A DNA stretch of 64,000 nt from the human T2T-CHM13v2.0 reference genome, Homo sapiens, in NCBI RefSeq assembly GCF_009914755.1, contig NC_060938.1. One strand, given 5' to 3'. This document shows positions 1 to 3,647 of the stretch, in pieces. A program made the position numbers and the translations under genes. Position 1 is the first letter of the stretch; each line of letters starts with the position of its first letter. The notes beneath the pieces are model-generated. The model was not told the DNA's origin, ran no database searches, and saw only the letters and a list, made by a program, of their open reading frames with translations.

Positions 1-1285
1 TTTAGAAAACCCCATCATCTCAGCCCAAAATCTCCTTAAGCTGATAAGCAACTTCAGCAAAGTCTCAGGATACAAAATCAATGTGCAAAAATCACAAGCA
101 TTCCTATACACCAAGAACAGACAGAGAGCCAAATCATGAGTGAACTCCCATTCACAATTGCTACAAAGAGAATAAAATACATAGGAATATCACTTACAAG
201 GGATGTGAAGGACCTCTTCAAGGAAAACTACAAAACACTGCTCAAGGAAATAAGAGAGGACACAAACAGATGGAAAAACATTCCATGCACATGGATAGGA
301 AGAATCAATATCATAAAAATGGCCATACTGCCCCAAGTAATTTATAAATTCAATGCTATCCCTATCAAGCTACCATTGACTTTCTTGAAAGAATTGGAAA
401 AAACTACTTTATATTTCGTATGGAATCAAAAAAGAGCCCACATAGCCAAGACAATCCTAAGTAAAAAGAACAAAGCTGGAGGCGTCATGCTACCTGACTT
501 CAAACTATACTACAAGGCTACAGAAACCAAACAGCATGGTACTGGTACCAAAACAGACATATAGACCAATGGAACAGAACAGAGCCCTCAGAAATAACAC
601 CGCACATCTACAACCATCTGGTCTTCGACAAACCTGACAAAAACAAGCAATGGAGAAAGGATTCCCTATTTAATAAATGGTGCTGGGAAAACTGGCTAGC
701 CATACGCAGAAAACTGAAACTGGATCCTTTCCTTACACCTTAAACAAAATACCATTTGACCTAGCAATCCCATTACTGGGTATATACCCAAAGGATTATA
801 AATCATTCTACTATAAAGACACACACACGTATGTTTATTGTGGCACTGTTAACAATAGCAAAGACTTGGAACCAACCCAAATGCCCATCAATGATAGGCT
901 GGATAAAGAAAATGTGGCACATATACACCATGGAATACTAAGCAGCCATAAAAAAGGATGAGTTCATGTCATTTGCAGGGACATGGATGAAGCTGGAAAC
1001 CATCATTCTCAGCAAACTAACACAAGAACAGAAAACCAAACACCTCATGTTTTCACTCATAAGTGGGAGTTTAACAATGAGAACACATGGACACAGGGAG
1101 GGGAACATCTCACACTGGGACCTGTTGAGGTGTGGGAGGCTAGGGGAGGGATAGCATTAGAGAAATACGTAATGTAAATGACGGGTTGATGGGTGCAGCA
1201 AACTGCCATGGCACATGTATAGCTATGTAACAAACCTGCATGTTTTGCACATGTACCCCAGAACTTAAAGTATATTTTAAAAAGG
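1..1285 (+). mobile_element. L1PA (L1PA7-like) ORF2 3' part and 3'UTR, with a ~630-bp internal deletion; continues off the left edge
   Basis: ORF 136..564 ([15 protein letters not shown]...[11 protein letters not shown]) is L1 ORF2; 966..1154 is the ORF2 C-terminus ([26 protein letters not shown]); L1 3'UTR runs to ~1275; deletion junction at ~745-750. Confidence 0.95.
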
Positions 1286-1472
1286 AAACATAACAATACT
1301 TTTCTTGAGAAATAAATCTGTAAAATGGCAAAAAAAAAAAATTCAGTCATATAGAAAGCATCAGCGATGTCTTTTTTCTATACAACTCGTAAATAGGAAG
1401 ATGTATGTGCTCTGATAGGAGCTCTTTATCTGGGGTCCAGGGACATCTGGGGACTTCAGGAGGTCCTGAAAT
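898..1472. repeat. Left arm of a ~575-bp near-perfect inverted repeat
   Basis: Reverse complement of 3069-3647; the only differences I found are one substitution (1380/3161) and A12 versus T16. Confidence 0.97.
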
Positions 1473-1590
1473 ACTGTAAAACTATATCAAAAAAATTATG
1501 TGTATGTGCATATTACTGTAGATATGGTCCATAACTTAAATTGCACACTCAACAAGGAATCCATGTCCCCCAAAAGTTCAAGAACCAGAA
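1418..1590. mobile_element. Degenerate hAT-Charlie-like non-autonomous DNA transposon
   Basis: Ends resemble Charlie/MER termini (TCTGGGGTCCA...; CCCCAAAAGTTCAAGAACCA). Confidence 0.45.
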
Positions 1591-3068
1591 CTCGATAGCA
1601 CGCAGTAATTGCTAAAAGAACTATTAGAGCTGGATGGAACTTCAGAGATTCTCTCATTCAAAATATCAGAAACATGAAGTATTCACTTGTGGATTAGGAA
1701 ATAGAGGTACAATCAATCATATTCATACTAAATATGTTCTCAGGCAAGAACATCAAAGTGTGGCAGCACATGGTTTGGTTAACATAAAGCTAATTTAAAG
1801 AAGAAATTCAAAATGGTAATGACTGATAGAGTGGTATTTCTAAAGAGGTGTGTAGAGTTTTCCCTTTTGAAAAGTTTTTTTACAGAAAATCTGAGGTTTT
1901 ATTTACTGTATGTGAGTTCCTGGTTAAAGGGAAGAGACAATGTGGCACTGTAGCCCTCAAATGCTCCTACTTCTTCTCTTTCCTGGTCTATAGTAACTCC
2001 AATAAATGAAATTCACAAGTCTATCCAAGGGCAAGGCAACATATGATTTTGTATATAAAGTTCACATTTTGCATTTAAATGGTGTGTTTACTTTTTTAGC
2101 CTTGTCAACTGGAAGTAATGGAGGACTTCAGATCCTGTAACTTGTTTTAAGATGAACATAACATAAAGTCTCATTATTTGGGATGCAAGTATTTTATATT
2201 TTGTGATCATTTGGACAAAGCCCAGATTGGCATTTATCTTCGTAGTCTCAAAAATGGGTTCGATAAATATATTTAGAGTAGAGAAACAAGATTGAGGAAG
2301 AATGCTTAACTTACCAGTCCCTGTTGCAAGCATTAATCTGTGTATCAAACACTAGTGGTTAATACGCTGTCTAGCAAAGACATTTATTCCTTGGACCAGG
2401 GCTAAACAAAACATTGTTAGCTAATTGCTTATGGAATTATACTTACTTTAAATAATTCAACCACATTTTTAAAAAGAAGCATTATTTAGCTAAAAATTCA
2501 CATAGCTATGCTGGGCTTTTGGGCTGACTGGTTTTATTATTAATCATCATAAAAATCAGATGATCACAGTCTCTTAGATGAACCCAAGAAATAATATACC
2601 AGAAACTATCTGACTACTCATTCTTGAATACAATATTCATAAAGCCACTTGCAGTAAAATTCTAACTTGTTCCCGCATTAAGTAAAAATGTTATCAATTT
2701 ATAAAACCTGATGTTTAAACAAGTGAATGATAGTGTTTTTAAAAAAGAGAAATTTAATTCCTTCCTTTTTTTTAATGCCTCCAATGTTTTAGTCTTTAAG
2801 ATTGAATGTTAGTCAATGTCTCCGAGTCAAAAGGACTGACAATTTCATCCCAATGTTGCTGTTTTCCCCTTTATTCTTTAGAAATGGGCTCAACCTCAGC
2901 TCAGTTGGAATGTCCACTAGGCTGATAAAGATCTCAATTCACCTATGTAGAAAAACATACATTTTATTCAGTTCCTTTTGTATTCCTTTATTTCCTAAAA
3001 TGCTTGATTCTTATATAGAATTCTTTCTTTATATCATTTCCTTGTCTACGTACATTTTTGGTACGTAC

Positions 3069-3647
3069 ATTTCAGGACCTCCTGAAGTCCCCAGATGTCC
3101 CTGGACCCCAGATAAAGAGCTCCTATCAGAGCACATACATCTTCCTATTTACGAGTTGTACAGAAAAAAGACATCGCTGATGCTTTCTATATGACTGAAT
3201 TTTTTTTTTTTTTTTGCCATTTTACAGATTTATTTCTCAAGAAAAGTATTGTTATGTTTCCTTTTTAAAATATACTTTAAGTTCTGGGGTACATGTGCAA
3301 AACATGCAGGTTTGTTACATAGCTATACATGTGCCATGGCAGTTTGCTGCACCCATCAACCCGTCATTTACATTACGTATTTCTCTAATGCTATCCCTCC
3401 CCTAGCCTCCCACACCTCAACAGGTCCCAGTGTGAGATGTTCCCCTCCCTGTGTCCATGTGTTCTCATTGTTAAACTCCCACTTATGAGTGAAAACATGA
3501 GGTGTTTGGTTTTCTGTTCTTGTGTTAGTTTGCTGAGAATGATGGTTTCCAGCTTCATCCATGTCCCTGCAAATGACATGAACTCATCCTTTTTTATGGC
3601 TGCTTAGTATTCCATGGTGTATATGTGCCACATTTTCTTTATCCAGC
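3069..3647 (-). repeat. Right arm of the inverted repeat: inverted copy of the L1 3' end plus its ~190-bp downstream flank
   Basis: Direct alignment; ORF pairs 966..1154(+)/3391..3579(-) and 983..1177(+)/3368..3562(-) give identical peptides. Confidence 0.97.

What the first reader, a model, noticed from the sequence alone, without database searches (positions are those of the whole stretch)
898..3647. Very recent 575-bp inverted duplication with a templated junction
Seen: 3069-3647 is the reverse complement of 898-1472, differing by one substitution and a homopolymer length, although the L1 itself is old. The copy includes ~190 bp of non-L1 flank, cuts through a putative DNA transposon at 1472, and has no polyA or TSD, so it is not retrotransposition. 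The junction holds ~20 nt of filler with TACGTACATTT twice (3047, 3062). CTA occurs at both 3046-3048 and 3647-3649. Inference: a replication template switch (FoSTeS/MMBIR) or Pol-theta-type repair. The arms could now drive recurrent inversion of the 1.6-kb spacer, or form a long dsRNA stem if transcribed.
Basis: partly seen in the sequence, partly recalled or inferred. Interest (0 to 1): 0.8.

Follow-up and report, generated by a model that had tools for sequence, protein, structure and literature searches.

The report
Local inverted copy-paste duplication in SLC35F4 intron
A 575-base piece of an SLC35F4 intron was copied at the DNA level and pasted backwards 1.6 kb downstream, most likely by a repair or replication template switch; it is real and also in the older human reference, but it is an ordinary example of a known kind of structural change.

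Summary
Window 898-1472 and 3069-3647 are reverse complements. They differ by one substitution (1380/3161) and a homopolymer (A12 versus T16). The unique part of the arm occurs only at these two places in CHM13.

The left arm is the source, because the L1 runs unbroken across 898. The copy has no 3' poly-A and no target-site duplication, so retrotransposition is very unlikely.

Its inner junction lies in a 26-nt local direct repeat (TACGTACATTT twice). That reading predicts a different empty allele.

Three reader points fail or weaken:
- The "DNA transposon cut at 1472" is not supported.
- About 45 nt plus the A-run of the "non-L1 flank" belong to the L1 insertion.
- The structure is neither private nor an artefact. 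A published hg19 table of long near-perfect inverted repeats (Barak 2020, Table S8) lists the same geometry, with zero RNA coverage.

Two other entries of that table, located in CHM13, show template-switch junctions. One is an inverted copy dropped cleanly into an Alu.

An inversion of the spacer with flanking duplication cannot be excluded without an outgroup. Interest is low to moderate: a new member of a known kind.

The parts
1..1285 (+). 3' part of an older L1 (it continues upstream of the window and has an internal deletion near 747). It is the source context of the left arm.
   Evidence: 39 of 39 non-self L1 hits scored (of 8,563 candidates) align contiguously over window 747-1100, that is, across 898, at 94-96% identity; five L1 copies align to 747-1274/1283 at 90-93%.
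1286..1341 (+). About 45 nt of non-L1 sequence that ends in an AATAAA signal, then A12. This is probably an L1 3' transduction or an RT template-switch chimera, and it is part of the old L1 insertion.
   Evidence: window 1294-1330 hits chr3 (C3:77098813-77098849) at 97% over 37 nt; the chr3 locus continues as unique DNA where the window has the A-run, and it has no L1 upstream.
898..1472 (+). Left arm, the source copy (575 nt): L1 3' end, the chr3-like stretch, A12, and 131 nt of unique intron.
1473..3046 (.). Single-copy spacer (1,596 nt between the arms, counting the junction bases up to 3068).
   Evidence: no other full copy in the genome. A 72%-identical paralogous stretch on chr1 covers only 2523-2886.
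3047..3072 (+). Inner junction. TACGTACATTT occurs twice (3047-3057 and 3062-3072), and the second copy overlaps the arm by ATTT. It contains the 8-nt palindrome GTACGTAC (3061-3068).
   Evidence: The 24-mer across the junction is unique in the genome.
3069..3647 (-). Right arm, the inverted copy (579 nt), with T16 at 3200-3215 and the single substitution at 3161.
   Evidence: The L1 part stops abruptly at 3647, and the sequence beyond it is unique.
3647..3649 (+). Outer junction. CTA (or TA) can be read as 2-3 nt of microhomology if a 1-nt slip is allowed.
   Evidence: sequence reading.
3659..3667 (+). CTGAAATGT, the reverse complement of the 9 bases across the inner junction (3067-3075). It lies 11 nt beyond the outer junction. 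Unexplained, and possibly chance.

Best explanation
A germline DNA repair or replication accident copied 575 nt lying 1.6 kb upstream and inserted the copy in reverse orientation at what is now 3062-3647. The source and the 1.6-kb spacer were left in place.

The general mechanism is a microhomology-mediated template switch: fold-back or MMBIR/FoSTeS-type synthesis followed by end joining. I put the probability of this general class, whether or not the spacer was inverted, at about 0.85.

The specific parse I favour is inference:
1. A 3' end at the break or stall next to 3648 primed on the other strand at 898 and copied to 1472.
2. The new end (...AAAT) annealed to ATTT at 3054-3057 of the other break end.
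3. It copied 7 nt (TACGTAC), let go, and was joined to that end's terminus.

This explains the 11-nt direct repeat without any untemplated base. It predicts an empty allele in which 3061 abuts 3648.

The structure is common or fixed in humans. Its likely consequences are passive: a potential 575-bp intronic RNA duplex and a potential substrate for inversion by homologous recombination.
For: - Near-identical arms with sharp edges.
- The unique 131-nt flank is present only twice genome-wide.
- The left arm is continuous with its L1 in 39 of 39 L1 alignments, while the right arm's L1 is truncated against unique DNA. So left is the source.
- There is no poly-A at the copy's 3' end and no TSD.
- The arm edge 3068/3069 sits inside one of only 16 local direct repeats (at least 11 nt, offset 4-30). 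These cover 0.78% of the window.
- The junction 24-mer is unique in the genome, so the filler was not copied from elsewhere.
- The 1,596-nt spacer lies within the 766-70,466-bp range of fold-back spacers. Junctions with 2-8 bp of microhomology (13 of 21) or insertions (5 of 21) are typical (Hermetz 2014, passages).
- A hybrid mechanism of hairpin-primed synthesis plus end-joining capture is shown experimentally in yeast for 2-150-bp inserts (PMC11724301, passages).
- Sister locus C2 (L059 7716-8261 / 8681-9228) is a 548-nt inverted copy from 419 nt away. It splits one Alu: reference Alu positions 2-208 align up to the arm and positions 216-297 align from its end, in the same orientation.
- Sister locus C1 shows alternating source and Alu templates, with an 18-nt re-copy of the source end.
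- The same geometry is in hg19: arms 575/578, spacer 1,596.
Against: - No outgroup or empty allele could be examined, so insertion versus inversion-plus-duplication is not settled.
- Continuity across 1472/1473 could not be shown. BLAST found no paralogues, nhmmer found nothing in the window, and a MER5A profile built from 30 of 234 genomic copies gives no hit at 1400-1600.
- The repeat at the junction contains a palindrome and can form a 7-bp hairpin. It could therefore be an ancestral stall site rather than a scar, which weakens the 0.78% argument.
- The final join in my parse needs 0-2 nt of microhomology and, in one version, a 2-nt duplication of TA.
- The direction of synthesis is inferred from one junction only.
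- The analogy rests on 2 sister loci. A third was sought and not located.
Confidence: 0.6

Rival explanations
1. Inversion with flanking inverted duplication (staggered-break model, or a two-jump template switch of the dupINV type). Ancestrally the spacer lay in the opposite orientation next to 898-1472. The segment made of arm plus spacer was inverted while the arm was retained. In that case 3068/3069 is ancestral sequence, and 1472/1473 and 3647/3648 are the new joints.
For: - The final architecture (arm, spacer, inverted arm) is exactly what this model yields. In Drosophila, 17 of 29 inversions carry such duplications (Ranz 2007, abstract and passages).
- It needs only two clean junctions and no filler.
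- Continuity across 1472/1473 could not be demonstrated.
- The hairpin-prone repeat next to the arm edge could have been the stall site (sequence reading).
Against: - The arm edge would fall inside a rare local direct repeat by coincidence (0.78% of positions).
- It needs a 575-nt stagger or three to four breaks.
- The one sister locus whose target site can be read (C2) is a plain insertion without spacer inversion.
Confidence: 0.22
2. An old inverted repeat, of either origin, kept nearly identical by gene conversion between the arms. The low divergence would then not date the duplication.
For: - 575 nt at about 100% identity exceeds the length usually thought to be needed for homologous exchange (recalled).
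- Only one substitution is available for dating.
- The structure is present in two independent human assemblies.
Against: - Similar-sized repeats in the same published table span a continuum from 100% down to 96% identity.
- Sister locus C2 (548-nt arms, 419-nt spacer) has 9 mismatches and 2 gaps. So such small repeats do decay.
Confidence: 0.1
3. RNA-mediated copy. A read-through transcript covering the L1 3' end and its flank was reverse-transcribed by L1 ORF2p and inserted, either endonuclease-independently or after an aberrant TPRT.
For: - The copied segment (a 5'-truncated L1 3' end plus downstream flank) has the outline of a 3' transduction.
- A T5 run (3055-3059) lies next to the junction.
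Against: - There is no poly-A at the 3' end of the copy.
- There is no TSD.
- The copy ends in unique DNA with no polyadenylation signal.
- The internal A12 run was not used as a priming site.
- No + strand transcript is annotated here (hub table).
- Sister loci of the same architecture contain no L1 at all.
Confidence: 0.04
4. Assembly artefact of CHM13.
For: None found.
Against: An independent assembly (hg19) holds arms of 575 and 578 nt with a 1,596-nt spacer at a constant offset. The offset was validated by finding two other table entries at their predicted CHM13 places.
Confidence: 0.01

Closest known systems
Fold-back inverted duplications with a disomic spacer (Hermetz et al. 2014, PMC3907307)
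   Same: Inverted copy separated from its source by a kb-scale single-copy spacer (766-70,466 bp, median 3,428). Junctions carry 2-8 bp of microhomology or short insertions (passages).
   Different: Those are megabase duplications that end in terminal deletions after a dicentric stage. Here synthesis stopped after 575 nt and the second end was captured, so nothing else changed.
Hybrid foldback templated inverted insertions at DSBs in yeast (PMC11724301)
   Same: Hairpin-primed synthesis on one end, unwinding, then capture by the other end through end joining. This gives a local inverted insertion (passages).
   Different: The yeast events are 2-150 bp with a 41-nt loop. This one is 575 nt with a 1.6-kb loop, and the enzymes involved are unknown.
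Short-range template-switch mutations in great apes (PMC7954356) and local two-jump or templated-insertion rearrangements in cancer (PMC7025897)
   Same: Two template switches create a nearby perfect inverted repeat. The mechanism proposed is replication-based (passages).
   Different: From recall, the great-ape events are far shorter than this one; the passages I read give no lengths. The cancer events are somatic and mostly larger.
Inversions with inverted duplications from staggered breaks (Ranz et al. 2007, PMC1885836)
   Same: Identical end product: a segment flanked by inverted copies of formerly unique sequence.
   Different: It requires the spacer to be inverted relative to the ancestor, which was not testable here. 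It was described for large Drosophila inversions.
Long near-perfect inverted duplicated sequences in human pre-mRNAs (Barak et al. 2020, PMC7006430, Table S8)
   Same: This very locus is one of the 197 entries: hg19 chr14 58092659-58093234 / 58094830-58095408, 578 nt, 99.31%.
   Different: The paper treats them as potential dsRNA and, in its Discussion, names pairs of reversely oriented mobile-element copies as a natural source of such structures (passage). It gives only coordinates, expression and editing, and does not discuss origin or junctions.
Sister locus C2, CHM13 chr14:73,568,716-73,570,228
   Same: A 548-nt inverted copy of adjacent unique DNA with a short spacer (419 nt) and microhomology at both joints.
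   Different: It is older (97.99% identity). Its target site is readable because it lies in an Alu, whereas the target of the finding lies in unique DNA.
L1 3' transduction
   Same: The copied unit starts inside an L1 3' end and runs into downstream flank.
   Different: There is no terminal poly-A, no TSD and no polyadenylation site at the end of the copy.

Membership tests
Template-switch / fold-back local inverted duplication | Inverted copy of nearby sequence, with the source retained | tested here: met
Template-switch / fold-back local inverted duplication | Single-copy spacer of roughly 0.8-70 kb between the arms | tested here: met
   The spacer is 1,596 nt.
Template-switch / fold-back local inverted duplication | Microhomology or short templated insertions at the junctions | tested here: inconclusive
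   An 11-nt local direct repeat spans the arm edge, and CTA/TA lies at the outer joint. The exact parse needs the empty allele.
Template-switch / fold-back local inverted duplication | The ancestral allele lacks the copy and has the spacer in the present orientation | not testable with these tools
   No primate or other human haplotype sequence is held. A scan of prokaryote contigs for contaminating copies found none.
L1 retrotransposition with 3' transduction | Poly-A tail at the 3' end of the inserted copy | tested here: not met
   The copy's 3' end at 3069 is preceded by GGTACGTAC. There is only a T5 run further upstream.
L1 retrotransposition with 3' transduction | Target-site duplication flanking the insert | tested here: not met
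   The flanks share at most CTA.
Inversion with flanking inverted duplication (staggered breaks / dupINV) | Inverted duplicates flank the segment | tested here: met
Inversion with flanking inverted duplication (staggered breaks / dupINV) | The flanked segment is inverted relative to the ancestor | not testable with these tools
   No outgroup is available. Repeat continuity across 1472/1473 was not demonstrable, and strand skews were uninformative.
Long near-perfect dsRNA-forming inverted duplicated sequence (Barak 2020 criteria) | More than 300 bp, more than 96% identity, both arms within one RefSeq transcript | tested here: met
   574 of 579 columns are identical. Both arms lie in an SLC35F4 intron (hub table). 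The locus is listed in Table S8. The predicted fold pairs 575 arm positions.
Inverted-repeat-mediated polymorphic inversion | Both spacer orientations segregate in humans | not testable with these tools
   The locus is not among the chr14 inversions shown in the passages of PMC3961182. No population data are held.
   A profile built from 30 of 234 genomic copies gives no hit at 1400-1600 at E<=10. BLAST found no paralogues. Other transposon families were not tested.

The most novel reading that the evidence does not exclude
The long, near-perfect, kb-spaced inverted repeats of human genes (the 197 of Barak et al., and a share of the 2,018 genome-wide in the dsRNAscan preprint) may mostly not be chance pairs of transposon insertions. 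They may instead be born by one ongoing germline process: local inverted templated insertion, that is, fold-back or template switch with a kb-scale loop. That process would then be the main source of MDA5-grade intramolecular dsRNA substrates and of small invertible segments. All three loci examined here (the finding plus two table entries) contain unique DNA in the arms and have template-switch-type junctions.
Probability: 0.3. Interest if true: 0.55.

Novelty: new member of a known kind. Interest (0 to 1): 0.3.

Why it matters
On its own this is a neutral-looking intronic rearrangement. It has three modest uses.

First, it is a clean germline example of a kb-range fold-back or template-switch insertion, with a junction that can be read base by base. 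It offers three mutually exclusive predictions for the empty allele, and existing ape and pangenome assemblies could test them at once.

Second, it shows that an entry in published catalogues of 'perfect dsRNA' repeats is a DNA-level duplication and not a transposon pair. That changes how the birth rate of such repeats should be modelled.

Third, the near-identical arms could allow spacer inversion and could form a 575-bp RNA duplex in SLC35F4 pre-mRNA. Published data show no coverage of the arms in GTEx poly-A pools.

Tried and rejected
- **DNA transposon at 1472.** A BLAST of 1385-1625 against the whole assembly found only the two local copies. nhmmer against the rest of the window gave a best E of 0.39. 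No terminal inverted repeats were found. A MER5A profile from 30 of 234 genomic copies gave no hit at 1400-1600. My own by-eye MER5 alignment was therefore dropped.
- **Target-site repeat continuity.** The flanks 2700-3068 and 3648-4000 have no paralogues reaching the junction. The chr1 paralogue stops at 2886.
- **Filler templated from elsewhere.** The 24-mer is unique genome-wide even with 2 mismatches allowed. No k-mer of 9 nt or more within 9 kb explains it, apart from the local repeat and two 9-mers, about what chance gives.
- **Strand-composition skew as a test of spacer orientation.** There is no consistent skew in the window, so the test is uninformative.
- **TSD of the old L1.** None was found within 8 kb upstream.
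- **Outgroup or population evidence.**
  - The Kronenberg 2018 ape paper is not held.
  - SLC35F4 is absent from the 12 of 14 searchable supplement files of PMC11811171.
  - The only SLC35F4 structural variant met in the literature search is an unrelated 252-kb deletion.
  - The locus is not among the chr14 inversions in PMC3961182.
  - The supplement of the dsRNAscan preprint holds no locus table.
  - A scan of prokaryote contigs for contaminating human or primate copies found nothing.
- **Third sister locus** (hg19 chr14:94.69 Mb). It was not located in two 10-kb tiles.
- **Retrotransposition and assembly artefact.** Both were rejected; see the rival explanations.
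Full report
**1. Observation**

The inverted repeat is real. The repeat finder reports arms 898-1341 / 3204-3647 (444 nt, 100%) and 1330-1472 / 3069-3211 (143 nt, 99%). A global alignment joins them into one pair, 898-1472 (575 nt) against the reverse complement of 3069-3647 (579 nt).

The pair differs by one substitution (1380/3161) and one homopolymer difference (A12 at 1330-1341 against T16 at 3200-3215). 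Homology is lost abruptly at both ends.

Of the 15 inverted pairs of at least 150 nt in the window, the other 14 are L1-L1 pairs at 79-92%. So this pair is an outlier and not a chance meeting of two transposon copies.

The part 1290-1472 occurs only at these two places in the 3.1-Gb assembly. The one exception is a 37-nt match on chr3.

**2. Which arm is the source**

A search with window 700-1100 returned 40 scored hits out of 8,563 candidates. All 39 non-self hits align contiguously from about 747 to about 1100, that is, straight across 898, at 94-96% identity. The left arm is therefore in its original L1 context.

The right arm's L1 part stops at 3647 against DNA that is unique in the genome. 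The L1 is far older than the duplication: five L1 copies are 90-93% identical to it over 747-1283, against 99.8% between the arms.

**3. Corrections to the anatomy**

The L1 body ends at about 1283-1285. The next ~45 nt match a unique chr3 locus (37 nt at 97%). They end in an AATAAA signal followed by the A-run, whereas chr3 continues as unique DNA and has no L1 upstream.

This looks like a 3' transduction, or a reverse-transcriptase template-switch chimera, belonging to the old L1 insertion. The truly unique flank in the arm is therefore 1342-1472 (131 nt).

The 'DNA transposon cut at 1472' could not be confirmed:
- The assembly holds no paralogues.
- nhmmer found nothing significant in the window.
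- No terminal inverted repeats were found.
- A profile built from 30 of the 234 genomic copies, which a recalled 19-nt MER5A motif had found (control 0), gives no hit at 1400-1600.

**4. The junctions**

TACGTACATTT occurs only at 3047 and 3062 in the window. The second copy overlaps the arm by ATTT.

Only 16 local direct repeats (at least 11 nt, offset 4-30) exist in the window. They cover 0.78% of it, and the arm edge lies in one of them. The 24-mer across the junction is unique in the genome even with two mismatches allowed. So the extra bases were made locally.

The reading that explains every base is as follows (inference):
1. The end of the new copy (...AAAT) annealed to ATTT at 3054-3057 of the other DNA end.
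2. It copied seven bases (TACGTAC).
3. It dissociated and was then joined to that end's terminus.

This is the standard account of templated insertions in microhomology-mediated end joining (recalled). It gives a 7-nt insert plus 4 nt of microhomology instead of a ~20-nt filler. It places the empty site between 3061 and 3648 rather than between 3048 and 3648.

It also suggests that copying ran from 898 to 1472. On that view the inner junction is the capture junction.

The outer junction shares CTA/TA with the source if a one-base slip is allowed.

Two caveats apply. First, the repeat contains the palindromes TACGTA and GTACGTAC and can form a 7-bp hairpin (sequence reading). It could therefore instead be an ancestral stall site. 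Second, a 9-mer (CTGAAATGT, 3659-3667) that mirrors the inner junction lies 11 nt beyond the outer junction and is unexplained.

**5. Not retrotransposition**

The copy has no poly-A at its 3' end and no target-site duplication. It ends in unique DNA without a polyadenylation signal, and the internal A12 run was not used as a priming site.

**6. Not an artefact and not private**

Additional file 1, Table S8 of Barak et al. 2020 (PMC7006430) covers hg19. It lists 197 inverted duplicated sequences longer than 300 bp and above 96% identity within RefSeq transcripts. I read the abstract, passages, and parts 3 and 4 of the file.

One row reads chr14 58092659-58093234 / 58094830-58095408, length 578, identity 99.308%. 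The editing index is NA and FPKM is 0 in both GTEx pools.

With 0-based starts this gives arms of 575 and 578 nt and a spacer of 1,596 nt. All lie at one constant offset from the window coordinates, except that the second arm is 1 nt shorter. An identity of 574/578 fits one substitution plus three gap columns. The T-run therefore probably varies among humans (inference).

The offset mapping was validated. Two other chr14 rows were found in CHM13 within 0.4 kb and 3.3 kb of the predicted places, with the tabulated length and identity.

The locus is thus already catalogued as a potential dsRNA, but without any account of its origin. My literature searches turned up no description of its mechanism.

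**7. Sister loci**

*C2* lies at CHM13 chr14:73,568,716-73,569,261 / 73,569,681-73,570,228 (548 nt, 97.99%, spacer 419). It is an inverted copy of adjacent unique DNA lying inside an Alu.

An Alu taken from another locus aligns with positions 2-208 up to the inner edge of the copy. Positions 216-297 align from its last 8 nt onward, in the same orientation. This is an unambiguous insertion without spacer inversion, with microhomology at both joints and about 7 Alu positions lost.

*C1* lies at chr14:58,072,112-58,072,846 / 58,077,567-58,078,302 (736 nt, 99.73%, spacer 4,720). Its arms are unique and MIR-like DNA (the MIR label is by eye). Its junction alternates between templates in this order: arm, Alu positions 101-135, 12 nt, an 18-nt re-copy of the source end, then Alu positions 171-238. 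That is the signature of iterative template switching.

A third entry could not be located.

**8. Mechanism and rivals**

Published fold-back inverted duplications in patients have spacers of 766-70,466 bp (median 3,428). Their junctions carry 2-8 bp of microhomology (13 of 21) or insertions (5 of 21) (PMC3907307, passages).

Yeast experiments show hairpin-primed synthesis followed by end-joining capture, giving local inverted insertions of 2-150 bp (PMC11724301, passages).

Replication-based local two-jumps and templated insertions are common in cancer genomes (PMC7025897, passages). Short-range template switches are common in great-ape evolution (PMC7954356, passages).

The finding fits this family at an intermediate scale.

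The main rival is an inversion of arm plus spacer with retention of the arm, by staggered breaks or a two-jump of the dupINV type (PMC1885836, passages). It yields the same architecture and cannot be excluded without an outgroup. I give it about 0.22, against about 0.6 for plain insertion.

An old repeat homogenised by gene conversion gets about 0.1. Table S8 shows a continuum of identities from 100% to 96%, and C2 has clearly diverged.

**9. Age**

One substitution in about 574 sites gives 1.7 Myr, with a 95% Poisson range of 0.04-9.7 Myr. This uses 0.5e-9 per site per year, an assumed general value. The figure would be younger if the substitution arose during the error-prone copying. 'Very recent' is therefore only loosely true.

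**10. Consequences**

The 2,750-nt stretch folds with 575 arm-arm pairs (MFE about -1,454 kcal/mol). Both arms lie in the SLC35F4 pre-mRNA (hub table).

Such structures are rare. The dsRNAscan preprint counts 2,018 in the genome that are longer than 300 bp and more than 96% paired, and 88% of them are intergenic (PMC11838218, section 10). The published pools show no reads on these arms.

Spacer inversion by recombination between the arms is plausible but was not tested.

**11. Verdict**

Several details needed correcting. The structure is an ordinary member of a known class and is already listed in a published catalogue.

Noticed in passing
window 1286-1341; L003 (chr3:77,098,813-77,098,849): Between the L1 3' end and its A-run lie about 45 nt that match a unique chr3 locus (37 nt at 97%). 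They end at a canonical AATAAA-plus-cleavage position. The chr3 locus has no L1 upstream in this assembly. The cause is either a 3' transduction from a source L1 that is now absent, or a chimera made by reverse-transcriptase template switching.
   Followed up: partly
window ~745-748: The L1 carries an internal deletion of roughly 625 nt relative to other copies: L008 positions 876 to 1501 are skipped.
   Followed up: partly
window 2523-2886; L014 (chr1:105,289,5xx-105,289,8xx): About 360 nt of the spacer has a single 72%-identical relative on chr1 and none elsewhere. It may be an ancient low-copy repeat or a conserved paralogous element. Its nature is unknown.
   Followed up: partly
window 3659-3667: CTGAAATGT is the exact reverse complement of the nine bases across the inner junction (3067-3075). 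It shares CTGAAAT with the source end at 1466-1472 and sits 11 nt beyond the outer junction. It may be chance or a trace of an extra template switch.
   Followed up: partly
L047-L058: CHM13 chr14:58,072,112-58,078,302: This is another near-perfect inverted duplication (736 nt, 99.73%, spacer 4,720). Its junction alternates between source and Alu templates and re-copies 18 nt of the source end. In Barak Table S8 this entry is edited, with an editing index (AEI) of up to 58% on one arm in the muscle pool.
   Followed up: partly
L059 7716-9302: CHM13 chr14:73,568,716-73,570,302: A 548-nt inverted copy of sequence lying 419 nt upstream is inserted into an Alu, with microhomology at both joints. 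It is a textbook local inverted templated insertion.
   Followed up: yes
Barak 2020 Table S8 (hg19): In the 97 rows I read of the 197, arms of about 300-6,000 bp, with spacers from under 0.1 kb to about 10 kb, form a continuum of identity from 100% downward. That would fit a steady birth and decay of local inverted duplications.
   Followed up: partly
window 4786-5449: An annotated SRSF10 processed pseudogene (LOC401777) lies 1.1 kb downstream of the right arm. I did not examine it.
   Followed up: no
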